Positions 16,301 to 52,201 of a stretch of 64,000 bases of DNA are shown piece by piece (within the stretch, counting starts at the first letter, position 1; every line of letters starts with the position of its first letter). The DNA is from an uncultured Gammaproteobacteria bacterium (GTDB lineage: Bacteria; Patescibacteriota; Patescibacteriia; UBA9934). The stretch spans positions 628,816-692,815 of the forward strand of contig CAZKGL010000001.1 of NCBI GenBank assembly GCA_964552565.1, read 5' to 3'. The position numbers and the translations under genes were made by a program. A model generated the notes under the pieces. That model was not told the DNA's origin, did no database searches, and worked only from the letters and a program-made list of their open reading frames with translations.

Positions 16301-17116
16301 ACGGAGCTCGACTGGCATGACCCGTTTACGATCACGTGGGAATCCGGCGGGACGGGATCGTTCGCAAACGTCGACCTCTGGTACTCCACCGACGGGCTGA
16401 CGTATGCGCTCATCGCCGACAACACGCAAAACGACGGCGTCTACGAGTGGATCCTCCCCCGCATCACCGCGGAGAACGTCACCGTCAAGGCCGAAGCGAC
16501 CGACCTCGTCTCCGTCATCACGTCGCGTATCTCCCCCACATTCCGCATTACCGGGACGGACGCGTCGTCTGGGACATCCGACGGCAGCTCCTCCGGCAGT
16601 ACGACCGCGTTCGGCATCTCCCCGCTCGACGGATCGCTTGAGGCGCTGACGCCGCTCTCCCCCGGCGCGTACTTCCGCGGCGCCGACTACGACACCGTGT
16701 ATTACCTTACGGACGCCGGCGTGCGCCGCCCGTTCATGAACGAGACGACGTACTTTACGTGGGAAGACGACTTCGACGCCGTCGTCACCGTGACGAATGC
16801 GACGCTCGCCGCTTACCCGCTCGGCGCGCCCATGTTGCCGCAACCCGGGACCGTCCTCATCAAGATCATGTCCGACCCGCGCGTCTACGTCGTCGAGGCC
16901 GACCCGGCGGACGACACCAAGGCCGTCATTCGGACCATTCCCTCTGAGGACGTCGCGACCGCGCTGTTCGGCGCCGACTGGGCGGACTACGTCATCGACC
17001 TCCCGCCGACCCTGTTCGGACGGTTTACGAAGGGTCCGGACGTCGAAAACACGGACCTCCAGGAGGCTGGGCTCTTGAAGCGCCGGGCGGACCTGGCCGC
17101 CCAGGGGACCTGGTAG
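13382..17116 (+). CDS. giant secreted/surface protein with right-handed parallel beta-helix repeats
   Basis: 1244 aa; signal-peptide-like N-terminus; YYVATTGNNSNDGSSGSPWLTLQHA...DGDTIHVAAGTY pectate-lyase-fold start; dozens of NxTxTxxG/T-rich repeats; Ig/FN3-like Thr/Ser-rich C-terminal region. The start could be any of M1, M3 or M10. Confidence 0.8.
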   Translation: MGMFSSRPLMARQFFSRPGFLLRLCMVALLCTAGILFFYGSAAAATYYVATTGNNSNDGSSGSPWLTLQHAETTATDGDTIHVAAGTYTENDATYGGWATSKAISWIADGAVTVRSTGTVRVAQVRGATSATSFNGFTFDAQGTDSYAVFIDGVANKTFTNCTFSGATSMAVNVNGTSITINTSTFTVTAGRAFRATNFNGISMDGNTFSISGTATKLFDTTGTGGTLSMTNSTITSTMAAGSAIFHPSVAGTYTITGNTITNTGRVFFASAATITATFSNNVMSSSRVGSEAMIEISISGTYTISGNTGTNAGKILLATVGTGTISYTNNNLTNTLVASANYVDFSTGTWTITATGNTFTSATATGTGNVFNVANQASPNISSNTIDTASTDALSHITISSTGTAGGTLQVTNNTMRSRSTSGYVISIGSEGSTAGDGMLDGGTVEGNTIYGAIYYDPTALTASTHSIFYSYNKNANIRYNTVIGGGYGVVIKGGGLTWTAGGVYYNKFINCIGVSPVRIKGVKDLNVHNNTIYADPALSDAYNAFNITENGASETSTGTVLKNNLVSHAGTATIISIDAGSLTGLVSNYNLFYDSTGGDLASTPTNYTFAAWQALGYDANSVTSAPSFTDAAAYDFTLAVGSPAINAGTALGYTRDFAGNTVPVGVTDIGAYEVQDATAPTGGAFTINSGASYTGSTSVTLTITCPTDPSTPVQMAYGNSATPTNWTNCAASQAHTLAAGDGAKTVSVRFKDSIGNTTSDLTQSITLDTTAPSGVGAPTFGTITASSIVVNKPAAVTEAGSGVYQWQARRNSTTALDLTAVGTGSVTDASLSENTQYTYDVRFNDTVGNLGSYGTSAQKYTLAAAPTNLAVSTSSKITLTLTVDSFPNDTSGSSGYYFSRSGANSGWIQTNTWQDTGLGCGVSNVYSVKYRNGDGTETATISLTASTNACSSTAHINPITYAITVTSPAEGTELDWHDPFTITWESGGTGSFANVDLWYSTDGLTYALIADNTQNDGVYEWILPRITAENVTVKAEATDLVSVITSRISPTFRITGTDASSGTSDGSSSGSTTAFGISPLDGSLEALTPLSPGAYFRGADYDTVYYLTDAGVRRPFMNETTYFTWEDDFDAVVTVTNATLAAYPLGAPMLPQPGTVLIKIMSDPRVYVVEADPADDTKAVIRTIPSEDVATALFGADWADYVIDLPPTLFGRFTKGPDVENTDLQEAGLLKRRADLAAQGTW

Positions 17117-20055: not shown

Positions 20056-20102
20056 TTGACGCTCCGGAAGTCGTAAAGTAAACTGAAGATGAACTTCAGT
20101 TT
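20056..20102 (+). promoter_or_regulatory. sigma70-like promoter overlapping a 23-bp palindromic operator, upstream of the toxin-antitoxin pair
   Basis: TTGACG, 17-nt spacer, TAAACT; perfect inverted repeat AAACTGAAG-ATGA-ACTTCAGTTT (20080-20102) overlapping the -10 and +1, typical of an antitoxin autoregulation site. Confidence 0.5.
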
Positions 20103-20106
20103 ACCT

Positions 20107-20328
20107 ATGGACCAGATCATCAGCCTCAAAGAGTTACGGCAAGATGTCGCTTCCTATGCGAAGAAAATCAGCAAAGGCGATTCTTTTATTGTCATGAAGC
20201 GCTCAAAGCCGATCTTCCGCATCGCTCCCGTAGAAGAAGAGGGCTGGGAAACCGTCATCGACTGCACAACATTTTCCAAAGGCGGCATCCCCGCGAACAA
20301 GCTCTTGAAGATCCTGGCGTCACTGTAG
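20107..20328 (+). CDS. type II antitoxin, Phd/YefM family
   Basis: MDQIISLKELRQDVASYAKKISKGDSFIVMKRSKPIFRIAP matches the Phd/YefM fold signature; 2 nt upstream of a RelE/ParE toxin gene; lower GC than the flanks. Confidence 0.75.
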   Translation: MDQIISLKELRQDVASYAKKISKGDSFIVMKRSKPIFRIAPVEEEGWETVIDCTTFSKGGIPANKLLKILASL

Positions 20329-20330
20329 GT

Positions 20331-20579
20331 ATGGTCGACAAGATCCGAAAACTCTTGCGACAGCTGTCCGTACGCGAACAACGTCAGTTGGCGCACGCAA
20401 TTCGCCTCGTCGCGTCGAACGACTTCCGCGGGCTTGACGTGAAAAAACTCAAAGGAAGAGACGACGTTTTCCGTGTCCGTAAAGGAAAATTCCGTATCAT
20501 TTTCCGAAAAATTGAAGATGCAGACCCAATGATTATCGCGATCGAGCGCCGGTCGGACACGACATACAACACTCCGTAA
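20331..20579 (+). CDS. type II toxin, RelE/ParE family
   Basis: FRVRKGKFRIIFRKIEDADPMIIAIERRSD is typical of the RelE/ParE C-terminal region; lower-GC patch. Confidence 0.8.
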   Translation: MVDKIRKLLRQLSVREQRQLAHAIRLVASNDFRGLDVKKLKGRDDVFRVRKGKFRIIFRKIEDADPMIIAIERRSDTTYNTP

Positions 20580-20627
20580 CCACAGGAGGAACGGGCCTCG
20601 CTTCTCCGAAGGCAGCGTTTTGCGCGC

Positions 20628-21563
20628 CTACTCCTGCAGCGATGGTCCATCGATTTGCGCCGTATGTCTCCACTGGCCGCGAATGATGGCGTGAATGACC
20701 CCCATCAGGAGAATAGCGCCGAGCCATTGGGTGGGCGCAAGGCGTTCATGCAAGAAGACGAAGCCAAAGATGGCAGCAGAAAGTGGCCAGGTGAGCTCGA
20801 GAATCGTCGACCGTGACGCAAGGACGCGTTTGAGACCGAAGTAGTAGAGTGCGAGCGCCAGCATTCCCGTCGAGACGGTGATGCATGCAATAGAGAGGAA
20901 GTCGCTTGGTGTTACCGCGACGATTTGACTGCCATTCTGCATGAGGAGGGTGATGATGAGAGAGAACACCACGGTAAAGAGGAATCGCAACGTAGTGACG
21001 TGGAGTGATGACGTATCGTGGAGCGTGTATTTGGAGAGCGCCGTCGACGCGCCCCAACACGCCGCCGCACCAATGGCGAACAGCGCAGCGACGGCCGTCC
21101 CCTGCCCGCTTTCCAGACTTACCGCTCCATTCGGAAACGACAGGAGGTATGTGGCGCCCATGGCGAGAGCGGCAAGGCCGGCGTCATGCGGGGTAATCTT
21201 TTCGCGGAGGAAGACCGCAGCGGCGGTAATGGCAAACAGCGGCTGGAGTTGCTGTAAGAGCACCACGACCGAGTAGGACATGTAGTGCACTTGGGCGAGC
21301 GCGGCCGTGTAAAAGATCGTTCCGAGTGTTCCCGACAGCAGCGACACAAGGATGATCGTCATCCATTGTCTACGATTGAGCTGTCGAAACTTCCTCCAGG
21401 CCGGGCTCGTCACTGCCAGCAGGATGACGAGTCCGAACGCATGTTCCCAAAAAACGATGACCGTCGGCGGGAGATGATAAAGGTGACGTCGAAGGAGTCC
21501 GTCGAAACTCCATAAAATTGCCGCACAAATAATCGCAAACGAACCGAGTTTCCGGTATTGCAT
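20628..21563 (-). CDS. EamA/DMT-family transporter
   Basis: 311 aa, ten TM helices in two EamA-like halves; inserted between nusG and rplK. Confidence 0.85.
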   Translation of the reverse strand: MQYRKLGSFAIICAAILWSFDGLLRRHLYHLPPTVIVFWEHAFGLVILLAVTSPAWRKFRQLNRRQWMTIILVSLLSGTLGTIFYTAALAQVHYMSYSVVVLLQQLQPLFAITAAAVFLREKITPHDAGLAALAMGATYLLSFPNGAVSLESGQGTAVAALFAIGAAACWGASTALSKYTLHDTSSLHVTTLRFLFTVVFSLIITLLMQNGSQIVAVTPSDFLSIACITVSTGMLALALYYFGLKRVLASRSTILELTWPLSAAIFGFVFLHERLAPTQWLGAILLMGVIHAIIRGQWRHTAQIDGPSLQE

Positions 21564-23549: not shown

Positions 23550-23580
23550 GGACGCGCCCCGTGCGCGGCCTTTTCGTTTT
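23550..23580 (+). terminator. rho-independent terminator after rplA
   Basis: GGACGCGC-cccgt-GCGCGGCC hairpin then TTTTCGTTTT; no rplJ-rplL follows. Confidence 0.55.
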
Positions 23581-23607: not shown

Positions 23608-24822
23608 ATGCACCATCATGTCCACACCTCCATGCTCGTGGCCGCGATCGGCATGGCGCTCGGTGCCGCCATCGCCACGTTGTCGGCCGAACCGTCGTAC
23701 GCCGCGCCGCGGCCGTCGCTGACCGTCCGCATCGACAACACGCCGGAGGCCGGCATCGTCCTCGATGCGCACGAGCAGCTCGAGGTCGCGCGGTTCGCCT
23801 TGCGTTCCGGACGCGAGGACCTTGTCGTCGACACGCTCTCGTTCCAGAACTGCGTCACGGACGCCGACGGCGACGCCGACGGCGATTGCGCGGATGACAA
23901 TGAGACGGCGGGCGCCGACGCCGCAGTCGTCAAACTCCGCCTGCGCTACACCGACGCCGACGGCAACGAGCGCCGCTCGCCGGGCACGCTCGTCGATGGC
24001 GTCGTGACGTTCAGCAACCTCGTCCTCCCTTTGCCCCGCGGCACGTCCGTCCCGGTCGTCCTCAGCATCGACACGGCCACCATCGACGACAGCGCCGTGA
24101 CGAGCGGCATGCAGGTGCAGTTCAACCTGAACGCGCGCACCGCGGACTTCCATGCGAAGGTGAAAAAGACCGGCCGCGTCCTCACCGAGTCGCACGTCGG
24201 CAAAGTCGTCGCCGGGGAAACGATGACGCTCCGCAACACGGCGCCCGCGCTCACGCTGTCGGACGACGCGCCGTCGGGCGCGGTGACGCCGGGCATGACG
24301 GAAGTGTTCCGGTTTGACGCGTCCGCGGGCGCGGAAGGCGACATCAGCCTCTCCGGCGTCATGTTTGCGCTGACGGCGAGCGATAACGCGGAAACCGAGT
24401 GGGATGAATGCGAAAAACTCGGGGCTGACACGGCGAACTTTACGCTGACGAACGCGACGACGGGTGCGACGATCGACGTCACGTGGGGCATCTCCACCGC
24501 GAGTGGCAGGTCGTGCGCGGGGGTGCGCCGGCAAGATGTCGTGTACCTCTACGCCGACTTCACGACCGCGGAGACGATCGCCGCAGGGCAGACGACGGCC
24601 TACGCGCTCACGGTCAACACCAGCCGGGCCAGCACGCTCATGAACGACACCCTGCTCGTGACGCTTCCCGACCAGGCCACGCTCGACGAACTCGACAAAG
24701 GGTTCCTTGCCGTCGAGTGGTCGGACGGCACGTCCGGGGGGTCGACGATCGACGGCGGAGAGATCGACACGCTCCCGATCGACGGCAATCCCCTGCTCTT
24801 CCAGAAAAAGGCAAAGCGCTAG
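23608..24822 (+). CDS. secreted hypothetical protein, paralog A (Asp-Gly-Asp-Cys motif family)
   Basis: 404 aa; signal-peptide-like N-terminus; DADGDADGDCADDNE motif; clear paralog of 29001-30218, sharing VTFSN/G, QxNLNA(R/K), VPGM(T/A)E(V/A)FRF, ASDNA..W(D/N)EC and L.V..PDQA.L blocks. Confidence 0.7.
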   Translation: MHHHVHTSMLVAAIGMALGAAIATLSAEPSYAAPRPSLTVRIDNTPEAGIVLDAHEQLEVARFALRSGREDLVVDTLSFQNCVTDADGDADGDCADDNETAGADAAVVKLRLRYTDADGNERRSPGTLVDGVVTFSNLVLPLPRGTSVPVVLSIDTATIDDSAVTSGMQVQFNLNARTADFHAKVKKTGRVLTESHVGKVVAGETMTLRNTAPALTLSDDAPSGAVTPGMTEVFRFDASAGAEGDISLSGVMFALTASDNAETEWDECEKLGADTANFTLTNATTGATIDVTWGISTASGRSCAGVRRQDVVYLYADFTTAETIAAGQTTAYALTVNTSRASTLMNDTLLVTLPDQATLDELDKGFLAVEWSDGTSGGSTIDGGEIDTLPIDGNPLLFQKKAKR

Positions 24823-25322
24823 AGCACGACGTAGTGCAGCAGCACCGACTGCTCGCCGAGCTTCTCTGCGGACATAAGCTGGAGGCGTTTGCTGCCGACG
24901 CCGTCGACAAGCGGCACGCCCGCGCCGAAGATGATCGGCTCAACGGTGATATACATATCCGTCACGAGGTCGGTGGCAAGAAACGCAGAAAAAATTTCCC
25001 GCCCGCCGGCAACGACCGCTTCGGTATAGCCGCGGGATTCGAGCGACCGCACCACCGCATGCGGCGTTTCGTTTGTGCACTCAAGGACGCCCGGCACGTC
25101 GTCAAACGGCGGCTCTTGGTGGGTCATGACGACGTTCAGGCGTTCGGACAGCGGTTCGCCGATGGTCTGGAATGTCCGGCGGCCCATGATGACGACCCCC
25201 GCCTCCTTGGTTTTCATGACAAAAAACCGCTTATCTTCGGCACTTGTCCAATCGGTCAGGTGGTCCCGGTCGGTGGCGATCCGGCCGTCCACGGACATGG
25301 CGGCGACGATGGTGATCTTCAT
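24819..25322 (-). CDS. dihydrofolate reductase-family protein (RibD C-terminal-like)
   Basis: MKITIVAAMSVDGRIA...GVVIMGRRTF...AVVAGGREIF pattern of the RibD_C/DHFR-like reductase fold. Confidence 0.7.
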   Translation of the reverse strand: MKITIVAAMSVDGRIATDRDHLTDWTSAEDKRFFVMKTKEAGVVIMGRRTFQTIGEPLSERLNVVMTHQEPPFDDVPGVLECTNETPHAVVRSLESRGYTEAVVAGGREIFSAFLATDLVTDMYITVEPIIFGAGVPLVDGVGSKRLQLMSAEKLGEQSVLLHYVVL

Positions 25323-25396
25323 ACGAACTCTGCCCTCAGTTTACCCCCACACGCCCCTTTTCGCCCAGCCCCGAGGCGTGCCAAGATACCCCCACT

Positions 25397-26512
25397 ATGA
25401 CGAACTGGTCCGCGCTCCAAGGGGCATTGCCGCTCCAATATATCCGCGCCCTCATGGCCGAAGGGCATATCCATGGCGCACGCGAAGAGCACCTCCAACC
25501 GTCGTCCCTGGACCTCTCGCTCTCCGGCGAGGTGTACCGCATGCGGGGTACTTACTTGCCGCGCCGCGGCGAGACGATCCGCGAGCTCGTGCAGAGCGGC
25601 ATGCTGTACCGCTGCGACCTCCAGCACCCGCTCGAGCTCTTCGGCATTTACCTCGTGCGGCTGAACGAGACGCTGTCGTTGCCGGACGCGGTGCACGGCT
25701 ACACGAACAACAAGTCGTCGTCCGGGCGCATCAACTTGCAGACGCGGCTCGTCGTCGACGGCGTGTCGCGCTTTGACATGGTGCCGGCCGGCTACCGCGG
25801 CGAACTGTGGCTCGAGATTATCCCGAAGTCATTCCCGGTCAAACTCGCAGCCGGCGAGCGCGTCAACCAGATGCGGTTCGCAACGTGTGACGCACGGCTG
25901 TCGGACGCCGAGCACTTTTCCCTGTTCGACCGCGCGCAGCTCTTGTGCGACCTTGCGGGAAACGCCTACAAGGCCGACGCGTCGACCGTCGACAAGGACG
26001 GCGTCGTCATGTCCGTCGACCTCTCGAGCGAGGAGATCATCGGCTACTCATGCTCGCCGACCGCATGCCGCGTGCTCGACTTCGCGCGCCGCGACTATGA
26101 CCCGTCGGAATTCTTCGACCCGATCCTCCGGCCGAAGAACGGGCAGTTCGTCATGAAGCGCGGCGACTTTTACATCTTGGTGACGAAGGAATGCCTGCGC
26201 GTGCCGGACGCCTACGCGGCCGAGATGGCGGCGTACGACCCGAGCAAGGGCGAGTTCCGCAGCCATTACGCCGGGTTCTTTGACCCAGGTTGGGGCTTCC
26301 GCCCGGACGGCGGCGTGCGCGGCACATCGGCGGTGCTCGAGATTTTTACGCATGACAATGACTTTGTGCTGCGCGACGGCCAGCCTATTTGCAAGATGAT
26401 CTACGAACGCCTCGCCGCGCCGGCCGAAATACTCTACGGCGACGCCAAACTGACCAACAACTACTACCGCCAACGCGGCCCGCGCCTCAGCAAGCATTTT
26501 AGAATGGGGTAG
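25397..26512 (+). CDS. 2'-deoxycytidine 5'-triphosphate deaminase, long DCD form
   Basis: 371 aa; dUTPase/dCTP-deaminase-fold motifs (GELWLEI, FFDPGWGF, GTSAVLEIF); length and architecture match the long stand-alone DCD family. Confidence 0.75.
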   Translation: MTNWSALQGALPLQYIRALMAEGHIHGAREEHLQPSSLDLSLSGEVYRMRGTYLPRRGETIRELVQSGMLYRCDLQHPLELFGIYLVRLNETLSLPDAVHGYTNNKSSSGRINLQTRLVVDGVSRFDMVPAGYRGELWLEIIPKSFPVKLAAGERVNQMRFATCDARLSDAEHFSLFDRAQLLCDLAGNAYKADASTVDKDGVVMSVDLSSEEIIGYSCSPTACRVLDFARRDYDPSEFFDPILRPKNGQFVMKRGDFYILVTKECLRVPDAYAAEMAAYDPSKGEFRSHYAGFFDPGWGFRPDGGVRGTSAVLEIFTHDNDFVLRDGQPICKMIYERLAAPAEILYGDAKLTNNYYRQRGPRLSKHFRMG

Positions 26513-26521
26513 AACATCAGT

Positions 26522-26950
26522 ATGAAATTCATGATCTGCGGCAGTATGTCGTTCTCGGACAAGATGCTGCAAGCGAAGGCACAGTTAGAAAGTCTTGGCC
26601 ACGAGTCCATGGTTTCGAGCTTCGTGCAAAACCATGTCGGCAAGAACCAGGCGGAAAGCGAGGCGATCGCGTTACAAGAAAAGATGAACGAAGATGCGAT
26701 GCGCGTCGACTTCGAAAAGCTGAAACACGTCGATGCGATCCTCGTTCTCAACTACGACAAACGCGGTATTCCGAATTACATCGGCGGCAACACGCTGCTC
26801 GAGATGGGCTTTGCACACATCCTCAACCGCAAGATCTTCCTCCTGAATCCGGTTCCAGAGATTCCCTTCTACAAATCCGAAATCGAGGCCATGCATCCCG
26901 TCATCCTCCAGGGACTTTTTCCACAGCTGCATACCGTTGACGCGGCATGA
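26522..26950 (+). CDS. nucleoside 2-deoxyribosyltransferase-like (NDT/SLOG-fold) protein
   Basis: 142 aa; MKFMICGSMSF Rossmann-like start and NYIGGNTLLEMGFAHILNRKIFLL, resembling the NDT D.GT..E.G.A catalytic region; GC is visibly lower than the flanks. Confidence 0.5.
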   Translation: MKFMICGSMSFSDKMLQAKAQLESLGHESMVSSFVQNHVGKNQAESEAIALQEKMNEDAMRVDFEKLKHVDAILVLNYDKRGIPNYIGGNTLLEMGFAHILNRKIFLLNPVPEIPFYKSEIEAMHPVILQGLFPQLHTVDAA

Positions 26951-27073
26951 AAGGTGTGAGGAAATGGAGGTAACCAAGCGTGGCTCATCATGAGCTACTC
27001 TCTCGGTGTCACAAAAGAGACTCCCCATTGTTTTTGCAATGGCGGAGTCTCTTTTGTTTTCCTCCGGGCCGTA

Positions 27074-27149
27074 TGGGCCTATGGTGGTAGGGGCAGCCGC
27101 GCTTGGTTTGACATCGAGAGGCACGGGTTCGATTCCCGTTAGGTCCACC
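27074..27149 (+). tRNA. tRNA with encoded CCA; anticodon loop TTTGACA, anticodon unresolved
   Basis: 76 nt: acceptor GGGCCTA/TAGGTCC (one G-T pair), D-arm, anticodon stem CTTGG/TCGAG, 4-nt variable loop, T-arm ACGGG-TTCGATT-CCCGT, discriminator A, CCA. By register the anticodon is UGA, but the gene lacks the long variable arm of Ser tRNAs and has C at position 37. Confidence 0.75.
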
Positions 27150-27164
27150 ATAGCCATGCACAAG

Positions 27165-27238
27165 GCCCGGACCACCAGCACCCCGCGTCCCCGGTCCGCT
27201 CAGCGGACCCCGGCGGGGTGTTTGGTTTAACAGCACTT
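27165..27238 (+). terminator. extended GC-rich hairpin with T-run downstream of the tRNA
   Basis: Nested inverted repeats (GGTCCGCT-CAGCGGACC inside CACCCCGCG...CGGCGGGGTG), then TTTGGTTT. Confidence 0.4.
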
Positions 27239-27619
27239 CCCTGCGCAGCCGGCGCAGGAATTGTTCTTGCGCGATGCGTAATACGCTCTGCAGCCCATCG
27301 CAAATTCTTCTTCGGGCGGTAGGGTGTCGTGCGGGTACGCCATGTTGCCGTCGCCGAGGGTTTCCCACAGTTTCACGTCATTCAGCCAGCACAAATTGTG
27401 GCCCGTCTGCTCGCGGTGCGTCTCGATGGCGCCGCGCAGGCGACGGATCTCCTCGCGTGCGTCGCTCAGTTCCGACGATACGGTGGCGAGTTGCGCGACC
27501 AATTCGACGCGGCGGGCTTCGAGTGCAGCAATGCGGTCGTCCATAGTAAGGAAAGTATACCTGAAACGCGAGCGCCGCCCGTCCCTCAGGTGAGAGACGA
27601 GCGGCGACTCCAGCTCCAT
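27227..27619 (-). CDS. hypothetical coiled-coil protein with a Cys-rich C-terminal tail
   Basis: ORF ending ...GCRAYYASRKNNSCAGCAGKCC; heptad-like N-terminal region. Start uncertain (M1 at 27619 or MDDRIAAL at 27544); no clear RBS for either. Confidence 0.35.
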   Translation of the reverse strand: MELESPLVSHLRDGRRSRFRYTFLTMDDRIAALEARRVELVAQLATVSSELSDAREEIRRLRGAIETHREQTGHNLCWLNDVKLWETLGDGNMAYPHDTLPPEEEFAMGCRAYYASRKNNSCAGCAGKCC

Positions 27620-27623
27620 AGCG

Positions 27624-27663
27624 AGGCCAAGCCTTTACCAGGCTAAGCCTCTACAAGGTTTAG
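27624..27663. repeat. REP-like palindromic repeat flanking the Y1 transposase (left)
   Basis: GAGGCCAAGCCTTTACCAGGCTAAGCCTCTACAAGG contains the AAGCCT/AGGCT inverted units shared with the right flank. Confidence 0.45.
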
Positions 27664-28215
27664 GTAGTCCTCTCTTGAGAAGAGTCCGGGCATCGGGGCG
27701 TTCAATACGGGATCCGGCGAGGCCCCGCAGTACGACCGCATGCTGGACCACGGGTATCGCTCCAAATAATCGAGTGCCTGCCCGCCAATTCGCGGCCCGT
27801 CAAAGAGATCGATCGGGTTGGCGTGAATGTAGCGAATAAGCCATTGAAGCTGCTCCTGGCTTGTCACCCGCTTCGCGTGGAATGGCGCGGCCATGACACG
27901 CCCCTTATGCTGGTACTTCGTATTGAAGTACATGCCGTAACTCGTTCCGAGCCGATGCATGAGCGTCGAAATGCCGCCGTCAACGTCCTGTCGCATCACA
28001 AAGTGGTAATGGTTCGGCATGATCGCATACGCCACGATGCCTACAGGATTACTGAGCCAGTCCGGATGTTCGATTCGAGCATCACATCGGTTTGCCTCGA
28101 ACACACTTCGCAAAAACTTTCGGTAATCCTCGTCGCAAACAAATATCGTTCGCCTTTCAACGGCACGATTATACACGTGATAGTACTCACCTGTCGCAAG
28201 TGAAGGATCGCGCAT
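27643..28215 (-). CDS. IS200/IS605-family Y1 (HUH) transposase, REP-associated (RAYT-like)
   Basis: YHVYNRAVERRTIF...IVAYAIMPNHYHFVMRQ (HUH motif) and a C-terminal catalytic Tyr region (RYPWSSMRSY); GGAGAG RBS 8 nt before the ATG. Confidence 0.8.
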   Translation of the reverse strand: MRDPSLATGEYYHVYNRAVERRTIFVCDEDYRKFLRSVFEANRCDARIEHPDWLSNPVGIVAYAIMPNHYHFVMRQDVDGGISTLMHRLGTSYGMYFNTKYQHKGRVMAAPFHAKRVTSQEQLQWLIRYIHANPIDLFDGPRIGGQALDYLERYPWSSMRSYCGASPDPVLNAPMPGLFSREDYLNLVEA

Positions 28216-28272
28216 ACGTTTTACTCTCCGGAAATAAAACGCCCCCGGCTTTAGGCTGGGGAGTGTAGTTCC

Positions 28273-28316
28273 ATATTATCACAGGCCAAGCCTCTACAAG
28301 GCTAAGCCTCATTAAG
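28273..28316. repeat. REP-like palindromic repeat flanking the Y1 transposase (right)
   Basis: AGGCCAAGCCTCTACAAGGCTAAGCCTCATTAAGGCTTAGCCTT; AGGCTTAGCCT is a perfect palindrome. Confidence 0.45.
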
Positions 28317-28324
28317 GCTTAGCC

Positions 28325-28921
28325 TTGAAAGTGGCTAGTTATCCACAGTGCTATACTGTTACCACTGTGCCACGGGGGAGGACGCATCTCATTATCGACT
28401 GCATCGCGATCGGCGTGAGCATCTGTATCGCCGTTGGTTTGTTGTACACCGGCACGCTCCATGCGCTCCTCACCGAAACGGCGGAGTCACGGCTTATCGG
28501 CACCCTCGTCGCCGGCTTCTTCTTTACGTCGGTCTTCACTACCGCGCCGGCGATCGTGGCGCTCGGCGAAATTACGGCGACTGCGTCGCTCTGGCAGACC
28601 GCGGTGGTCGGCGCGCTCGGTGCGACATGCGGCGACCTCATCCTGTTTCGGTTCATTCGCGACCGCGTCGGCGACGACATCGGCCACGTACTGAGGGCGC
28701 GCGGACGCAAACGCTACCCCGCCATCGTTCGCAACCGGCTGTTCCGCGGCTTCACCATGTTCCTTGGCGCGCTCGTCATCGCCTCCCCGCTTCCCGACGA
28801 ACTCGGCCTCCTCATGATGGGGCTGCCGCGCATGCCGCTGCGCGTCTTCATGCTCGTATCGTTTACCATGAACGCGTTCGGCATCTTCATGATCGGTCTT
28901 GTCGCCCGCGCCGTGACGTGA
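28325..28921 (+). CDS. hypothetical polytopic membrane protein
   Basis: About 198 aa, at least five hydrophobic helices. The annotated N-terminus overlaps the REP-like repeat, so the real start is probably internal (no ATG; possibly a GTG). Confidence 0.45.
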   Translation: MKVASYPQCYTVTTVPRGRTHLIIDCIAIGVSICIAVGLLYTGTLHALLTETAESRLIGTLVAGFFFTSVFTTAPAIVALGEITATASLWQTAVVGALGATCGDLILFRFIRDRVGDDIGHVLRARGRKRYPAIVRNRLFRGFTMFLGALVIASPLPDELGLLMMGLPRMPLRVFMLVSFTMNAFGIFMIGLVARAVT

Positions 28922-29000
28922 CCGTTATCCACACGCCCACGCGTCTTTTCTTTGCTGCAACAGCCATGCACGCCCTATACTTGAGGAAATTCTTTTTTGT

Positions 29001-30218
29001 ATGGCGAAAAAATCAGCCACTCCCATCAACGGGTCGTACGCGTTCGTCGCGACCGCCCTCGTCCTCGCGCTTGCGAGCGTCACGGCGTTCGGATTCGCGG
29101 GCAACTCGCTTGCGCTCTCCGCATCCGCACAACCGCTGCGCATCGCGCTGTCGGCGACCACGCCGTCAAGCGACATCCTCATCGGCGGCACGACCGACAA
29201 CCACGTCGTCAGCTACAGCTTCACCGCCGGGCGCCGCGAAGGCGTGCTCGTCGACACCATCACGCTGCACAACTGCGTCGGTCCGCGCGACGCGGACGGC
29301 GATTGCGCCGACGCAGGCGAGACCACGGGGAACGACTACGCCATCGCCTCGGTCTCGATTTCCTACACCGACTCGACCGGCAGCACGCGCACGGACACCG
29401 GCATCCTCTCGGGCAACCTCGTCACGTTCAGCGGCATGGACTTCGAAGTCCCCGCGAACACCACGCGGTCGCTTGAAGTCTCGGTCGACACGAACGCCGT
29501 CGATAGCTCTACCGTCTACTCGGGCAACACGATCCAGCTGAACCTCAACGCAAAGTCGCAATCGTTCTCCGCGGTGGGCCTCACGAGCGGCCGCTCGGTC
29601 ACGGAAACGAAGGTTGCGAAGAACGTCATTGCGCGCCGCATGGTCATGCGCGTCACCGAGCCGACCGTTTCCCTTTCGTCGAGCTCGCCGAGCGGGGCAT
29701 CGGTTCCGGGCATGGCGGAAGCGTTTCGGTTCAAAACGACGGCGCACAGCGCGGGCGACGTCGACGTGGCGCGCCTCACCTTCAACGTGACCGCCTCGGA
29801 CAACGCTGGCAGCGGCTGGAACGAATGCGGAACATTTGACGATTCGAGCAAGTACGCCCTGTACGCGGTGGAATCGGACGGGAGCCTGACATCGGTAACG
29901 GCCTCGTGGACGTTCTACTCGGAGGACGGCGCGCTGTGCGCCCGCTCGACCGACCCGCTCGCCTACGCCGTCGCGACGGTCGCCGAGACCGTTTCCGCAG
30001 GTTCCGAACGCGAGTTCGCCCTGTACGTCGACTCGAGCGGGGCAAGCGCGAGCGGCGACGACGCGCTCCAGGTCAGCATTCCCGACCAGGCCGAACTGAC
30101 CGCGCTGTCGCCGACCCTGCATGCCCTCACGTGGAGCGACGGGACAACGACCGGCAGCCGTATCAATGGGCTGTACATCGAGCACCTCGCCGTCACGGGA
30201 AGCACGCTCGTCTACTAA
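29001..30218 (+). CDS. secreted hypothetical protein, paralog B (Asp-Gly-Asp-Cys motif family)
   Basis: 405 aa; signal peptide; DADGDCADAGETTGND; co-linear with paralog A across conserved blocks (VTFSG, QLNLNAK, VPGMAEAFRF, ASDNAGSGWNEC, SIPDQAEL). Confidence 0.7.
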   Translation: MAKKSATPINGSYAFVATALVLALASVTAFGFAGNSLALSASAQPLRIALSATTPSSDILIGGTTDNHVVSYSFTAGRREGVLVDTITLHNCVGPRDADGDCADAGETTGNDYAIASVSISYTDSTGSTRTDTGILSGNLVTFSGMDFEVPANTTRSLEVSVDTNAVDSSTVYSGNTIQLNLNAKSQSFSAVGLTSGRSVTETKVAKNVIARRMVMRVTEPTVSLSSSSPSGASVPGMAEAFRFKTTAHSAGDVDVARLTFNVTASDNAGSGWNECGTFDDSSKYALYAVESDGSLTSVTASWTFYSEDGALCARSTDPLAYAVATVAETVSAGSEREFALYVDSSGASASGDDALQVSIPDQAELTALSPTLHALTWSDGTTTGSRINGLYIEHLAVTGSTLVY

Positions 30219-30223
30219 CCAAA

Positions 30224-30254
30224 CACAAAAGCCACCGTGCGGTGGCTTTTGTGT
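30224..30254. terminator. bidirectional rho-independent terminator between convergent genes
   Basis: A-run, AAAAGCCACCG-tgc-GGTGGCTTTT, then a T-run. Confidence 0.6.
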
Positions 30255-30607
30255 TACTCGTGCCCCATCTTCCCGACCTCTTCCCAAAGCTTCGCCTGCT
30301 CGCCCACGGAGGTCCATTCCGTCCGCAGCTGCCCTTGCTCGCACCAAATATAGAGCTTCGTCTCCCCGTCGCCAAAGCGGATGGCGTTGTACGAGCCGTT
30401 CTCGCCGCCGCCGTTTTTTACCCGTCCAATGAACTGGTCCATGTCCGCCTCGGCAAACATGCGGCGCATGCCGCCCGGAGCAAAATCGGAACGTCCGGTC
30501 ACCGCGGTGTCGATGCCGACGAGGATCGCCAGCGCCGCGTCGCGGTCGCCCGCCCGGATTGCATCAAAAAGCTTTTGTTCTTCGGCCTTGAATGCTGCAT
30601 GATCCAT
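30254..30607 (-). CDS. hypothetical protein co-transcribed downstream of thyX
   Basis: 117 aa ORF starting 3 nt after the thyX stop codon; plausible composition; no recognised family. Confidence 0.45.
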   Translation of the reverse strand: MDHAAFKAEEQKLFDAIRAGDRDAALAILVGIDTAVTGRSDFAPGGMRRMFAEADMDQFIGRVKNGGGENGSYNAIRFGDGETKLYIWCEQGQLRTEWTSVGEQAKLWEEVGKMGHE

Positions 30608-30609
30608 AC

Positions 30610-32469
30610 TTATTCGTCAGTGAGACCCTTCGCGATACGCTTCTGCGACTGCTTCGCTTCGGCGTCGGCGCGGCTCCACGGGTAATCGTTATGGTCGACA
30701 TGACCGAGGATACCACAGGCGGTGATCCACGGCGCGCGGTCGTTGATGATGCGCTCCATCGTCTGGCAGACGCGGCGGTAGTCCGGATGCCCCTGCGGAA
30801 TCGTGCGCAGCTCGAGGAAATGCTGCGCCTCGCGCAGGTTGAACCCCATCGTAAAACGGATGTGGTGGCCAAACGTCACGCAGTACTGCGCGACCTCGGG
30901 GCCGACGGACGCCACAAGCTGGTCGTACAAATCGCCGATCTCCGCGATGAGCGCGCGCACGTCGCCCGCCATGCCAATGTCCTCGATATCCTTGGGGAGC
31001 GTGAACCCGAGATGCGGGTTCAACAGTTGGCGCTGCTGCGTCAGCATGCGGTGACGGTGCAGGTCGCGGAAGATACCGAAGTTGCCCGTGACCTCGAACG
31101 TGAGCGGATAGCCCATCTCAAACCCGCGCGGCACACGGTCGCGCCGCGTCGCACGCGTCCCGATGAGTTCCGCGAGGAGCGCGACAAGGCGGTCCTTCGG
31201 CTCGCGCGAAAGGACCTCGACCATGGTGCGGGAGGTCGTGCGGCAGTGCGGGTAGTACGTCGCCGCAAGGAGGTGCGCGATAGGCTCCGCCGAATCGGCG
31301 AGCAGCGCAGGCATCTCTTCGCACGTGACCTCTGCGGACGACTTCTCAAACTGCAGGAAGCGCGGGAAGTGCTGCGCGATCTGCGCCTTGGTACGCGCAT
31401 CAACGCTCATCCAATACTGCTCGCCCTTCGGGTCGGCGCGCTTCACGTACTTCGGGATGACCTTGTTGAGCGTTTCGTGGAGGCGGCTGGCGATGTCGTA
31501 GAACTCCGGCATGTCCGACGAGTACAGCCGTTTGAGGAGATGCTCGAACGTGCGGCCGTTCGCCACCATGGCGACGTTCGTGAGCGTCGCCGCCGGCAAG
31601 ACGACGCGCGCGGTGTCGCACGCCTTCGTCTTGAGGTCGAACTTGTACACGCGCTTGAATTCCTTGATCTCCTTCTCGTCGGCGAGTTCGGCGAGCCTGT
31701 ACTTCGTGCTGTCGCCCGGGCGCACGGCGTATGCCGCGCCGTCGATCGGCTTCAGGGTCTCGTAGTGTTTCGTGAGTGCATCGACGAGGCGGGCATACAC
31801 GTCGAACGCCCTGTCCATAAGAATGACGTAGCGGCCGCCTTGCGGGCTTGCCATGATGCGCGGTTCGCGCAGGTACCACCATCGCCCGGTCACGGGGTCC
31901 TTCTCCGTGTAGTACACGTAGCGGCTCGACTGCTCAATGAACCCGCCGAGCCGGCGGTCCTCGATGACTTTTGTGGCCAGGTTACTGACCGAATTGAAAA
32001 GCACGGTGGCCCACTCGAGCTCTTGCACGGAATCGTCCCCGTATTGGATGAGGATGCGCTCAATGATCTCACTGAGCTTTTTCATCTTCAGTTCCCCGAC
32101 GGGGACGCCGAGCTCGCGCGACTCCTCAGGCGTCGAAACGACGAACTCATTCATGAGTACGTCGACGACGGTCCCCTGGATGCGGCTTTGACGGGCAAGC
32201 ATGGCGCCCGCCACACCGTGGAGTCGTCGCATGTCGAGTGCGGTCACCGTGCTTTCCGGCGAAAGCAGGTACGGCCGAGCAAGCGAAAACGCGTCTTCCG
32301 AAACGAAAGACCGGTACGGCAACATGGTGCCGTCCCCGTATGCGACCGCTTCTCCGGACGCACCGTCATCGTGTTGTGTGGCAAACGTCGCGAGGCGATC
32401 GGTTTGCGTGAGACGGCGGAAGCGGGTGAAGAGCGACATACGCGTATCGCGTGTTTTGGCTGCTCGCAT
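30610..32469 (-). CDS. thyX: flavin-dependent thymidylate synthase ThyX, long two-domain form
   Basis: Two ThyX-like halves: the first carries DRRLGGFIEQSSRYVYY (degenerate RHR...SxRY), the second GNFGIFRDLHRHRMLTQQRQ (RHR motif). Resembles the internally duplicated ThyX described in chlamydiae; divergent from dut. Start could be 32469 or 32439. Confidence 0.65.
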   Translation of the reverse strand: MRAAKTRDTRMSLFTRFRRLTQTDRLATFATQHDDGASGEAVAYGDGTMLPYRSFVSEDAFSLARPYLLSPESTVTALDMRRLHGVAGAMLARQSRIQGTVVDVLMNEFVVSTPEESRELGVPVGELKMKKLSEIIERILIQYGDDSVQELEWATVLFNSVSNLATKVIEDRRLGGFIEQSSRYVYYTEKDPVTGRWWYLREPRIMASPQGGRYVILMDRAFDVYARLVDALTKHYETLKPIDGAAYAVRPGDSTKYRLAELADEKEIKEFKRVYKFDLKTKACDTARVVLPAATLTNVAMVANGRTFEHLLKRLYSSDMPEFYDIASRLHETLNKVIPKYVKRADPKGEQYWMSVDARTKAQIAQHFPRFLQFEKSSAEVTCEEMPALLADSAEPIAHLLAATYYPHCRTTSRTMVEVLSREPKDRLVALLAELIGTRATRRDRVPRGFEMGYPLTFEVTGNFGIFRDLHRHRMLTQQRQLLNPHLGFTLPKDIEDIGMAGDVRALIAEIGDLYDQLVASVGPEVAQYCVTFGHHIRFTMGFNLREAQHFLELRTIPQGHPDYRRVCQTMERIINDRAPWITACGILGHVDHNDYPWSRADAEAKQSQKRIAKGLTDE

Positions 32470-32553
32470 CTTACACGCGAATCTCCGTGGGTCAACGCGC
32501 CAGTGTGGATAAGGAACCGTCGTCACAGACTGCGATGCTATACTTCGCCCGAT

Positions 32554-32997
32554 ATGGAAAATCCTCTCCTCGTCCGCTACAAAAAAATCCATCCCGACGC
32601 GCTTGCGCCGGAGTACAAAACCGCCGGCGCGGCCGGGTTTGATATCGCGCTCGTCGAGGATCTCGTGATCCCGCCGCGGAGCATGGTGAAATCCGGCACC
32701 GGCCTTGTCGTACAGGTTCCGGAGGGATATTTCCTCCTCATCGCGTCGCGCAGCTCCAACACGACCAAAAAGGGCATCACGCTCGCAAACGGCATCGGCG
32801 TGCTCGACTCCGACTACCGCGGCCCGACGGACCAGATCTGGCTTGTCATCGAAAACGTCACGGACGCCGAGGTGCGCCTCACGAAAGGCGACCGGGTGGC
32901 GCAGGGCATCGTCATCCCCTGCCCCGCGGTGGCGCTTGAGGAGATCGCCGGCGCGATCGATGCCGTCGACCGCGGTGGGTTTGGGAGCACGGGGTAA
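32554..32997 (+). CDS. dut: dUTP diphosphatase
   Basis: 148 aa; AGAAGFDIAL, SRSSNTTKKGITLANGIGVLDSDYRG and the C-terminal motif V (RGGFGSTG). Confidence 0.9.
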   Translation: MENPLLVRYKKIHPDALAPEYKTAGAAGFDIALVEDLVIPPRSMVKSGTGLVVQVPEGYFLLIASRSSNTTKKGITLANGIGVLDSDYRGPTDQIWLVIENVTDAEVRLTKGDRVAQGIVIPCPAVALEEIAGAIDAVDRGGFGSTG

Positions 32998-40911: not shown

Positions 40912-41018
40912 GGGCACCTCTCGAGGTGCAGTGACGCTACCAAAAAAACGCGATGTTGTCAACAGGTTTTGTCGACGGGTTAGCCAAAAACTTGGTATAT
41001 TTTCTGAAAATTGCCCGT

Positions 41019-52127: not shown

Positions 52128-52201
52128 GGGGGCGTGGGGTCAGCGGTCAACCTACCTGTCTTGTCAGCCAGGTGACACGGGTTCAAATCCCGTCGCCTCC
52201 A
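52128..52201 (+). tRNA. tRNA-like gene without encoded CCA and with a non-canonical anticodon arm (UGU by register)
   Basis: 74 nt: acceptor GGGGGCG/CGCCTCC, D-arm GGGT/ACCT, perfect T-arm ACGGG-TTCAAAT-CCCGT, discriminator A. The anticodon stem CCTGT/GCCAG has two internal mismatches and the loop CTTGTCA carries C at position 37. A terminator follows immediately. Confidence 0.55.

What the first reader, a model, noticed from the sequence alone, without database searches (positions are those of the whole stretch)
23608..30218. Two paralogous ~404-aa secreted proteins with a D-x-D-G-D-C-A-D motif bracket the accessory island
23608-24822 and 29001-30218 share a signal peptide, an acidic DADGDxDGDCAD block (calcium-binding-like) and at least five co-linear motif blocks, yet overall they are highly divergent. 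They flank the DHFR/DCD/NDT/tRNA/RAYT segment in direct orientation. As divergent direct repeats they could be the substrate for the island's excision or duplication, and they represent an uncharacterised secreted family.
Basis: seen in the sequence. Interest (0 to 1): 0.5.

Follow-up and report, generated by a model that had tools for sequence, protein, structure and literature searches.

The report
Two paralogous Uhrbacteria cell-surface proteins
The two genes are real, anciently diverged copies of an unannotated cell-surface protein family of Candidatus Uhrbacteria (tiny candidate-phyla-radiation bacteria, CPR), but they are far too different at the DNA level to drive excision of the genes between them, and only the second copy lies in a variable segment.

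Summary
ORFs 23608-24822 (A) and 29001-30218 (B) are paralogues: 38% identity over 392 aa, E 2e-69. Both have N-terminal export signals, four conserved Cys and a DxDGDC[AV]D acidic loop.

The recombination idea fails. The genes share 52% nucleotide identity and at most 14 identical bases in a row. They belong to two old subfamilies. A syntenic relative has rplK-DUF5671-rplA-A-DHFR-DCD-ThyX with nothing between DCD and ThyX. So the variable segment is 26507-30609, and B lies inside it.

The organism is an Uhrbacteria-like CPR bacterium (GyrB 82-86% to Uhrbacteria/Patescibacteria MAGs). The family is large: 481 representative clusters. It has no Pfam, NCBIfam or PDB match.

A confident AlphaFold model (pLDDT 88.5) shows two homologous ~180-aa beta-sandwich domains, each expected to carry one disulfide. 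They are fold-similar to cohesins and to Ig-like adhesin and pilin domains.

This ~360-aa module forms the extreme C-terminus of 370-1400-aa proteins and usually ends in LPxTGGTxx[F/Y]. N-termini vary: signal peptide, lipobox or TM anchor.

Most likely role: a Ca2+-stabilised binding or assembly head on the cell surface.

Lead: short and medium members in other genomes sit beside a membrane-anchored ClpB-D1-like AAA+ gene.

The parts
23608..24822 (+). Copy A: 404-aa exported double beta-sandwich protein. It belongs to the core, rplA-adjacent subfamily.
   Evidence: ORF and coding signal. Paralogy to B at E 2e-69. Orthologues sit in the same L1/DHFR position in L002, L003 and L016-18.
23608..23703 (+). 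A residues 1-32: His-rich n-region, hydrophobic core and an SYA|AP signal-peptidase-type site.
   Evidence: The most hydrophobic 15-mer has a Kyte-Doolittle mean of 2.3. The N-terminus and the [SY/SH/SR]A|A site are conserved in the closest A-clade sequences (P0002-P0004, P0009). No signal-peptide predictor was available.
23848..23919 (+). A residues 81-104: NC-x6-DADGDCAD-x2-ET-x-G-x-D acidic loop between Cys82 and Cys94, and the stretch just after it. Probable Ca2+ site.
   Evidence: These columns are invariant in alignment A2. Family-wide conservation is shown. Metal binding is inferred, not tested.
24772..24801 (+). A residues 389-398, LPIDGNPLLF: the family's terminal-strand motif. In A it is followed by a 6-residue basic tail, QKKAKR.
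   Evidence: C-terminal motif census and alignment.
29001..30218 (+). Copy B: 405-aa paralogue of the second subfamily. It lies inside the variable segment.
   Evidence: Clade assignment. AlphaFold model of pLDDT 88.5 and pTM 0.77.
29001..29129 (+). B residues 1-43: basic n-region (MAKK), a long hydrophobic helix (modelled as residues 15-38, low confidence) and an ASA|QP site. It could be a long signal peptide or an uncleaved membrane anchor.
   Evidence: Secondary structure, sequence, comparison with B-clade N-termini.
29130..29654 (+). B domain 1, residues ~44-218: a beta-sandwich with Cys92/Cys102 and the acidic loop (residues 91-112, nt 29271-29336).
29655..30215 (+). B domain 2, residues ~219-405: a homologous beta-sandwich with Cys276/Cys313. 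It ends in the terminal strand LAVTGSTLVY (nt 30186-30215).
   Evidence: hhalign of domain 1 against domain 2: probability 85%, E 6.6e-6, 147 columns..
26507..30609 (.). Variable segment absent from the collinear relative L016. It holds the NDT-like gene, tRNA-Ser, a 130-aa ORF, a RAYT with REP-like repeats, a VTT/DedA-like membrane protein, copy B and a 117-aa ORF.
   Evidence: The tblastx collinearity map places L016 12893/12939 opposite window 26506/30610. Gene content. GC is 0.57-0.60 at 26-29 kb against about 0.63 overall. L002 and L003 carry different cargo after DCD.
23553..23567 (+). Short GC hairpin with a T-tract between rplA and copy A. It is a weak terminator-like site.
   Evidence: This is a consensus match only.
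30222..30255 (.). Perfect 16-nt inverted repeat immediately after B's stop codon, between B and the convergent 117-aa gene. Probable bidirectional terminator.
   Evidence: repeat I7.

Best explanation
A and B are two anciently diverged paralogues of an unannotated cell-surface protein family, found so far in Candidatus Uhrbacteria and related Parcubacteria (CPR/Patescibacteria).

Shown:
- Each protein has an N-terminal export signal followed by a tandem pair of homologous ~180-residue beta-sandwich domains.
- Each domain carries one conserved Cys pair. The first domain carries a ~20-residue acidic loop, NC...DxDGDC[AV]D..ET.G.D.
- The chain ends in a conserved strand, consensus LPxTGGTxx[F/Y]-COOH.
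- Across the family this ~360-aa module is the extreme C-terminus of proteins of 370-1400 aa. Their N-termini are signal peptides, lipoprotein signals, TM anchors, or a signal peptide followed by a ~120-aa shared domain. Between the N-terminus and the module sit 0-5 extra copies of the same beta-sandwich repeat.

Inferred:
- The proteins are exported by Sec and held at or near the membrane or wall by their N-terminal end.
- The disulfide- and Ca2+-stabilised C-terminal double sandwich is then presented outward as a binding or self-assembly head, serving as an adhesin tip or a surface-layer-like lattice element.

Copy A is the core, fast-evolving member fixed downstream of rplK-rplA. Copy B is a member of the second subfamily that has landed in a variable hot spot between DCD and ThyX. 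The two genes have no role as recombination substrates.
For: - Paralogy: E 2e-69.
- Family size and architecture: 481 representative clusters at E <= 1e-3 and 114 at E <= 1e-30, with the module at the C-terminal end of 370-1400-aa proteins.
- C-terminus: 144 of the 159 retrieved proteins end in F or Y, with consensus NLPVTGGTIxY.
- N-termini: lipobox, TM-anchor and AXA types.
- Structure: pLDDT 88.5 and pTM 0.77, all-beta from residue 42.
- Internal duplication: hhalign probability 85%, E 6.6e-6.
- Composition: mature pI 4.3 and 4.4, rich in Ala, Thr, Ser and Asp.
- Fast evolution, as expected of exposed proteins: A is 46% identical to its L016 orthologue, while flanking GyrB, NusG, L11, L1, DHFR and DCD are 75-86% identical.
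- Taxonomy: GyrB is 82% identical to Ca. Uhrbacteria GW2011_GWD2_52_7. Named family members are Uhrbacteria or Parcubacteria hypothetical proteins.
- Precedent: highly expressed signal-peptide proteins of other Patescibacteria carry Ig-like, PKD and peptidoglycan-binding domains and were proposed to mediate host attachment (PMC10936435).
Against: - There is no experimental or expression data for any member.
- Calcium binding, disulfide formation and surface location are all inferred.
- A lacks any recognisable anchor after signal-peptide cleavage, so it could simply be released.
- Fold matches are generic beta-sandwich hits (TM about 0.2 for the whole chain) and do not discriminate between adhesion, lattice formation and carbohydrate binding.
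- Cys-containing proteins are atypical of classical S-layer proteins (my own knowledge).
Confidence: 0.6

Rival explanations
1. One reading: the two genes act as divergent direct repeats, and recombination between them excises or duplicates the intervening DHFR/DCD/NDT/tRNA/RAYT 'island'.
For: The genes are in direct orientation and 5.4 kb apart. A mobile-element gene (RAYT) and a tRNA lie between them.
Against: Nucleotide identity is 52% and the longest exact match is 14 nt. The best blastn segment is 67 nt at 79%. From my own knowledge, this is below the ~20-30 bp of perfect identity that RecA-dependent recombination needs. A and B sit in different old clades. L016 shows that A-DHFR-DCD-ThyX is the conserved backbone and that the indel is 26507-30609, with B inside it. 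No hybrid genes or flanking repeats were seen.
Confidence: 0.02
2. Cohesin-like scaffold: the beta-sandwich domains are cohesin analogues that dock partner proteins through a Ca2+-dependent dockerin-like interaction, assembling an extracellular enzyme complex.
Confidence: 0.07
3. Sortase-type substrates or pilins: the near-C-terminal LPxTG-like motif is a sorting signal that is cleaved for covalent attachment to the wall or for polymerisation into a fibre.
For: Many members carry LP[VI]TG near the end. Foldseek's best hits include pilins and LPXTG adhesins.
Against: Only 4-5 residues follow the motif, with no hydrophobic segment and no basic tail. A has LPIDG and B has LAVTG. AlphaFold places the motif residues in the final beta-strand of domain 2 with high confidence. 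The motif occurs only at the ends of family members in the window and 19 loci, not on unrelated proteins. No sortase was seen among the window ORFs scanned or in the gene tables returned for related loci.
Confidence: 0.05
4. Substrates of a dedicated AAA+-assisted pathway: the family, at least its short and medium forms, is handled by a membrane-anchored stand-alone ClpB-D1-like AAA+ ATPase. The ATPase would recognise the cytoplasmic Thr/Lys-rich N-terminal tail for export, insertion or turnover. B would be a member that has lost this partnership.
For: A ~330-aa protein with a TM helix and one AAA+ domain lies directly next to family genes in 7 distinct loci, either co-directional upstream of 1-5 tandem copies or divergent. 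All 13 adjacent family genes have T-[KRQ]-T-repeat N-termini, whereas A-clade, giant and lipoprotein forms do not. The ATPase matches only the D1 part of ClpB, ClpA and ClpV.
Against: The link rests on gene adjacency alone. The loci are phylogenetically related, so the counts are not independent. Neither A nor B has such a neighbour, and the only Clp-like gene in the window (about 63.2 kb) looks like an ordinary ClpB/C. No mechanism has been demonstrated.
Confidence: 0.15

Closest known systems
Crystallisation domains of Gram-positive S-layer proteins, such as Geobacillus SbsB and Bacillus Sap/EA1 (from my own knowledge)
   Same: They are exported and acidic. They are chains of Ig-like beta-sandwich domains tethered by an N-terminal anchoring module, and their assembly depends on Ca2+. 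The family's giant members likewise have an N-terminal non-repeat domain followed by beta-sandwich repeats.
   Different: The family has no SLH domain and no sequence similarity to these proteins. It has conserved disulfide-type Cys pairs. Lattice formation is untested. A and B themselves lack a wall-binding domain.
Fibrillar adhesins and MSCRAMMs (SdrG, ClfA), and stalk-plus-tip surface proteins
   Same: They share tandem beta-sandwich domains, a repeat stalk of variable length, multiple fast-evolving paralogues per genome and tandem gene arrays. They are Foldseek neighbours.
   Different: The family's anchoring is N-terminal (TM, lipid or signal peptide) rather than a C-terminal LPXTG. The conserved module is at the C-terminus. 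No ligand is known.
Cohesin modules of cellulosomes
   Different: There is no sequence relationship and no dockerin partner is known. The acidic Ca2+-type loop sits in the sandwich itself, whereas in cellulosomes Ca2+ is bound by the dockerin (my own knowledge).
DxDxDG-type calcium loops: EF-hand-like, thrombospondin type 3, Excalibur
   Same: These loops have a run of Asp at alternating positions with a Gly, next to Cys, in an extracellular protein. Copy A even contains DGDADG, which fits DxDxDG.
   Different: The family-wide register is D-x-D-G-D-C-x-D. It is a single loop, not a repeat, and there are no Pfam TSP_3, Excalibur or EF-hand hits.

Membership tests
Dockerin (type I, Pfam PF00404) | Two tandem ~22-residue Ca2+-binding F-hand segments forming a ~70-aa helical module | tested here: not met
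   No Pfam hit at E <= 1. There is only one acidic loop, and it is embedded in an all-beta domain.
Thrombospondin type 3 repeat (PF02412) and Excalibur (PF05901) | A DxDxDGxxDxxD or DxDxDGxxCE motif matching the family profile, usually repeated | tested here: not met
   No Pfam hit. The family register is DxDGDCxD and occurs once per protein.
Cohesin (PF00963) | Sequence membership in the cohesin profile | tested here: not met
   No Pfam hit in A, B or 8 other members.
Cohesin (PF00963) | Nine-stranded jelly-roll beta-sandwich fold | tested here: inconclusive
LPXTG sortase substrates | LPXTG followed by a hydrophobic segment and a positively charged tail at the C-terminus | tested here: not met
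   LPxTG-like residues lie 4-5 residues from the end with no hydrophobic segment. A has LPIDG plus QKKAKR, and B has LAVTGSTLVY.
SLH-anchored S-layer proteins | SLH domains (PF00395) | tested here: not met
   No Pfam hits.
S-layer proteins in general | Self-assembly into a 2-D lattice that covers the cell | not testable with these tools
   This needs microscopy or in vitro assembly. Acidic pI, composition and the Ca-type loop are compatible with it.
Sec-exported proteins | N-terminal n-, h- and c-regions with a small-x-small cleavage site | tested here: met
   By inspection, A has a hydrophobic core with KD mean 2.3 and a conserved SYA|AP site, and B has MAKK, a 24-residue helix and ASA|QP. 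Whether B is cleaved or remains as an anchor is unresolved. No SignalP was available.
Recombinogenic direct repeats flanking an island | Near-identical DNA, with stretches of perfect identity of at least ~20-30 bp | tested here: not met
   The longest exact match is 14 nt and overall identity is 52%.
   The segment is absent from L016. It holds tRNA-Ser and a RAYT-like Y1 transposase. GC is 0.57-0.60 over part of it. No flanking direct repeats were found, and B itself has host-like GC of 0.66.

The most novel reading that the evidence does not exclude
The family defines a CPR-specific surface-display system. A conserved C-terminal double-sandwich head ends in an almost invariant LPxTGGTxx[F/Y]-COOH strand. 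The short and medium forms carry a cytoplasmic Thr/Lys-repeat tail and are handled by a dedicated membrane-anchored, single-ring ClpB-D1-like AAA+ ATPase encoded next to them. That would be a previously undescribed pathway for export, insertion or turnover of envelope proteins in ultra-small bacteria.
Probability: 0.12. Interest if true: 0.65.

Novelty: new member of a known kind. Interest (0 to 1): 0.3.

Why it matters
CPR bacteria are thought to live attached to other cells, and their envelopes are almost uncharacterised at the molecular level. This work defines a large family of at least 481 clusters that carries no annotation. It now has a confident structural model, a clear modular logic (variable N-terminal tether, repeat stalk, conserved C-terminal head) and a recurrent AAA+ neighbour. 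That gives concrete candidates for Uhrbacteria surface-layer or attachment proteins, which can be tested by metaproteomics, cryo-ET and biochemistry. For the window itself, the practical result is negative: the 'island bracketed by repeats' does not exist. The true variable segment is 26.5-30.6 kb, at a DCD/ThyX hot spot.

Tried and rejected
- The word-index homologue search returned only 8 proteins, both with a single query and with a 21-sequence profile. That would have suggested a tiny family. The exhaustive profile search showed 481 clusters.
- The first AlphaFold run, on the 8-sequence alignment, was poor (pLDDT 57) and was not used. The 21-sequence alignment gave pLDDT 88.5.
- The AFDB50 fold library was unavailable. 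The BFVD viral library gave only generic low-TM hits.
- The 428-aa ORF in L003 was tested as a possible second paralogue and is unrelated (15% identity).
- I checked whether the C-terminal motif is a general sorting signal on unrelated proteins. It was found only on family members.
- I considered the window's Clp-like gene at about 63.2 kb as the AAA+ partner. Its upstream region and context look like an ordinary ClpB/C gene cut by the window end, not the ~330-aa TM+D1 form.
A 5-sequence C-terminal alignment worked.
- Literature searches found no description of this family.
- Rfam found only the two tRNAs in the window.
Full report
**Observation**

ORF A (23608-24822, +, 404 aa) and ORF B (29001-30218, +, 405 aa) are present as described. 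Both have the codon-position GC pattern of real genes in this 63% GC sequence. BLASTP aligns them end to end: 38% identity, 56% positives, 392 columns, E 2e-69. They are clear paralogues, not just proteins sharing motif blocks. tblastn and a family HMM find no third copy in the window.

Four Cys are conserved, along with the acidic block N-C-x(4-6)-D-x-D-G-D-C-A-D-x-x-E-T-x-G-x-D. Start codons:
- For A, the public gene call begins at Met9 (396 aa).
- For B, 29001 is the first ATG of the ORF (which opens at 28917) and is preceded by GAGGAAA.

**Organism and setting**

The window is ordinary chromosome of a small-genome CPR bacterium. It encodes gapA, tsf, rpsB, queA, prfA, prmC, ftsW, gyrB, secE, nusG, rplK, rplA, gatB, thrS, dnaE, pheST and rseP-like genes. 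GyrB is 82-86% identical to proteins of Candidatus Uhrbacteria and Patescibacteria MAGs. The source contig is 838,942 bp.

**Genomic context: the island idea**

Relatives carrying A-type orthologues keep the order rplK-DUF5671-rplA-[A]-DHFR(-)-DCD(+) (L002, L003, L016-L018). A tblastx map of L016 against the window is collinear from gyrB to gatB. In L016, DCD is followed after 46 bp by ThyX. The window instead has 4.1 kb between them (26507-30609), which holds:
- an NDT-like gene;
- tRNA-Ser;
- a 130-aa ORF;
- a RAYT-like Y1 transposase flanked by REP-like 16-nt repeats;
- a VTT/DedA-like membrane protein;
- copy B;
- a 117-aa ORF.

L002 and L003 carry other cargo after DCD, so this junction is a hot spot. 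Consequently A, DHFR, DCD and ThyX are backbone (a thymidylate-metabolism cluster), and B is inside the variable segment rather than a flank of it.

At the DNA level A and B share 52% codon-aligned identity, a longest exact run of 14 nt and a best blastn segment of 67 nt at 79%. No flanking direct repeats were found. In an NJ tree, A groups with P0009, P0002-7, P0014, P0011 and P0069. B groups with P0010, P0156, P0013, P0012, P0015, P0157, P0017 and P0026. The duplication is therefore old. B is actually closer to Uhrbacteria homologues (37-40% identity) than A is to them (30-33%). The proposed role as a recombination substrate is not supported.

**The family**

The word-index search saw only 8 proteins. 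An exhaustive profile search of 1.84 billion representatives found 481 clusters at E <= 1e-3, 266 at E <= 1e-10 and 114 at E <= 1e-30. Genome and metagenome scans placed relatives in Uhrbacteria MAGs. Every named member is a 'hypothetical protein' of Uhrbacteria or the Parcubacteria group. There is no hit above threshold in Pfam or NCBIfam, and none to PDB sequences.

The ~360-aa module always sits at the extreme C-terminus of proteins in size classes of about 400, 570-700 and 1250-1440 aa. Of the 159 retrieved proteins, 144 end in F or Y, with consensus [KD]NLP[VI]TGGT[IL]x[FY]-COOH. In the window and 19 loci the motif occurs only on family members. AlphaFold models it as the last beta-strand. 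I therefore read it as an intrinsic structural element rather than a general sorting signal.

N-termini fall into several types:
- cleavable AXA signal peptides, in the A clade and the giants;
- lipoboxes, as in P0029, P0031, P0038, P0018, P0025, P0044 and L022;
- basic Thr/Lys-rich tails followed by an Ala-rich TM helix, in the B clade and the medium forms;
- in the giants, a ~120-aa domain after the signal peptide. The same domain ends the window's 1244-aa beta-helix surface protein (39% identity, E 8e-28).

Longer members contain 1-5 extra copies of the same repeat. The logic is a variable N-terminal tether, then a repeat stalk, then a conserved C-terminal head.

**Structure**

With a 21-sequence alignment, AlphaFold2 gives pLDDT 88.5 and pTM 0.77 for B. 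It shows a low-confidence N-terminal helix (15-38) followed by all-beta structure from residue 42 to 405. Profile-profile comparison shows that residues 42-218 and 219-405 are homologous (probability 85%, E 6.6e-6), so the module is a tandem duplication. The Cys pairs lie at comparable positions in the two domains.

Fold searches give only generic beta-sandwich neighbours:
- Foldseek: E about 1e-7 to CfaB pilins, integrin alpha legs, RbmA, SdrG and ClfA, with TM about 0.2.

No close solved homologue exists. The acidic loop is present in the short forms (26 of 159 carry DxDGDCxD) and is deleted in the giants. A Cys-free DDDAD variant occurs in one clade. Mature A and B are acidic (pI 4.3 and 4.4) and rich in Ala, Thr, Ser and Asp.

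**Mechanism**

Shown: an export signal, a two-domain beta-sandwich architecture, conserved Cys pairs, an acidic loop, a C-terminal position in modular surface proteins, and fast evolution. A is 46% identical to its L016 orthologue, against 75-86% for flanking genes.

Inferred:
- The proteins are exported by Sec.
- They are tethered by the N-terminal end, except perhaps A.
- The domains are stabilised by disulfides and Ca2+.
- The C-terminal head mediates binding to a partner surface or self-assembly into an envelope layer.

Other Patescibacteria provide precedent. Their most highly expressed signal-peptide proteins carry Ig-like, PKD and peptidoglycan-binding domains and were proposed to act in host attachment (PMC10936435). 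I cannot separate the adhesin role from the lattice role with these tools. Cohesin-like scaffolding and sortase processing are less likely, as set out under the rival explanations.

**A lead beyond the finding**

In 7 distinct loci, a ~330-aa protein lies directly beside short or medium family genes. It consists of a TM helix and a single AAA+ domain that matches only the D1 part of ClpB, ClpA and ClpV.
- Co-directional, immediately upstream: L009 (followed by 3 tandem copies), L012 (the same locus as L013 and L020) and L021 (followed by at least 5 copies).
- Divergent: L007, L010, L014 and L019.

All 13 adjacent family genes carry T-[K/R/Q]-T-repeat N-terminal tails. A-clade, giant and lipoprotein forms lack both the tail and the neighbour. 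B belongs to the AAA-linked clade but has a degenerate tail (MAKKSATPINGSY) and no such neighbour, which fits relocation into the variable segment. This suggests a dedicated AAA+-assisted handling pathway, but it rests on adjacency among related genomes only.

**Verdict**

The recombination/island interpretation is refuted. The 'uncharacterised secreted family with a Ca-binding-like loop' interpretation is supported and extended. As a kind of thing, tandem beta-sandwich surface proteins are well known. The family itself, its invariant C-terminus and its AAA+ association are undescribed as far as the libraries and literature searched here show.

Noticed in passing
window 27608-27679 and 28267-28338 (flanking 27643-28215, - strand): The RAYT-like Y1 transposase gene is flanked on both sides by tandem 16-nt REP-like palindromic units (AGGCYAAGCCTCTACA...), a REPtron-like arrangement.
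   Followed up: partly
window 27075-27150 and 52128-52201: ARAGORN calls the first tRNA Ser(UGA), yet it is only 76 nt long, so it has no long variable arm. The second tRNA has an undetermined anticodon. Both pass the Rfam tRNA model.
   Followed up: no
window 13382-17116 (+): This is a 1244-aa exported beta-helix/FN3-like protein with a choice-of-anchor Q domain. Its C-terminal ~120 aa are 39% identical (E 8e-28) to the N-terminal domain of the ~1270-aa giant family members. The shared domain is unannotated and may be an envelope-anchoring domain.
   Followed up: partly
L009 9034-10014; L012 8976-9992; L010 8127-9131; L014 5765-6751; L021 3847-4857: A stand-alone ~330-aa protein with a TM helix and a ClpB-D1-like AAA+ domain is encoded next to family genes, often upstream of tandem arrays. 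Those family genes carry Thr/Lys-repeat N-terminal tails.
   Followed up: partly
window 20089-21563 and 32560-32997: Compared with the collinear relative L016, the window has two more insertions. One is a small toxin-antitoxin-like pair plus an EamA transporter (GC 0.53-0.57) between nusG and rplK. The other is a dUTPase gene after ThyX. L016 in turn has an ABC-2 transporter block between gyrB and secE that the window lacks.
   Followed up: partly
window 30610-32592 (-): ThyX is 660 aa long, with the Thy1 domain matching only its C-terminal part (best stretch 496-621). It is unusually long, and the L016 orthologue is 607 aa.
   Followed up: no
window 38316-40448 and 40953-42884: Two long ORFs (710 and 643 aa) encode highly charged proteins with no Pfam hit. 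Both strands show equally good codon-position GC signal, so the coding strand is uncertain.
   Followed up: no
window ~63157-64000 (+): A ClpB/ClpC-like gene runs off the end of the window. Its D1 domain is 44-48% identical to the short AAA+ proteins, but it appears to be the ordinary full-length chaperone.
   Followed up: partly
L004 (CAYRYG010000006.1): A MAG labelled 'uncultured Gammaproteobacteria' carries a 1288-aa giant family member. This is probably a mis-binned or mislabelled CPR contig.
   Followed up: no
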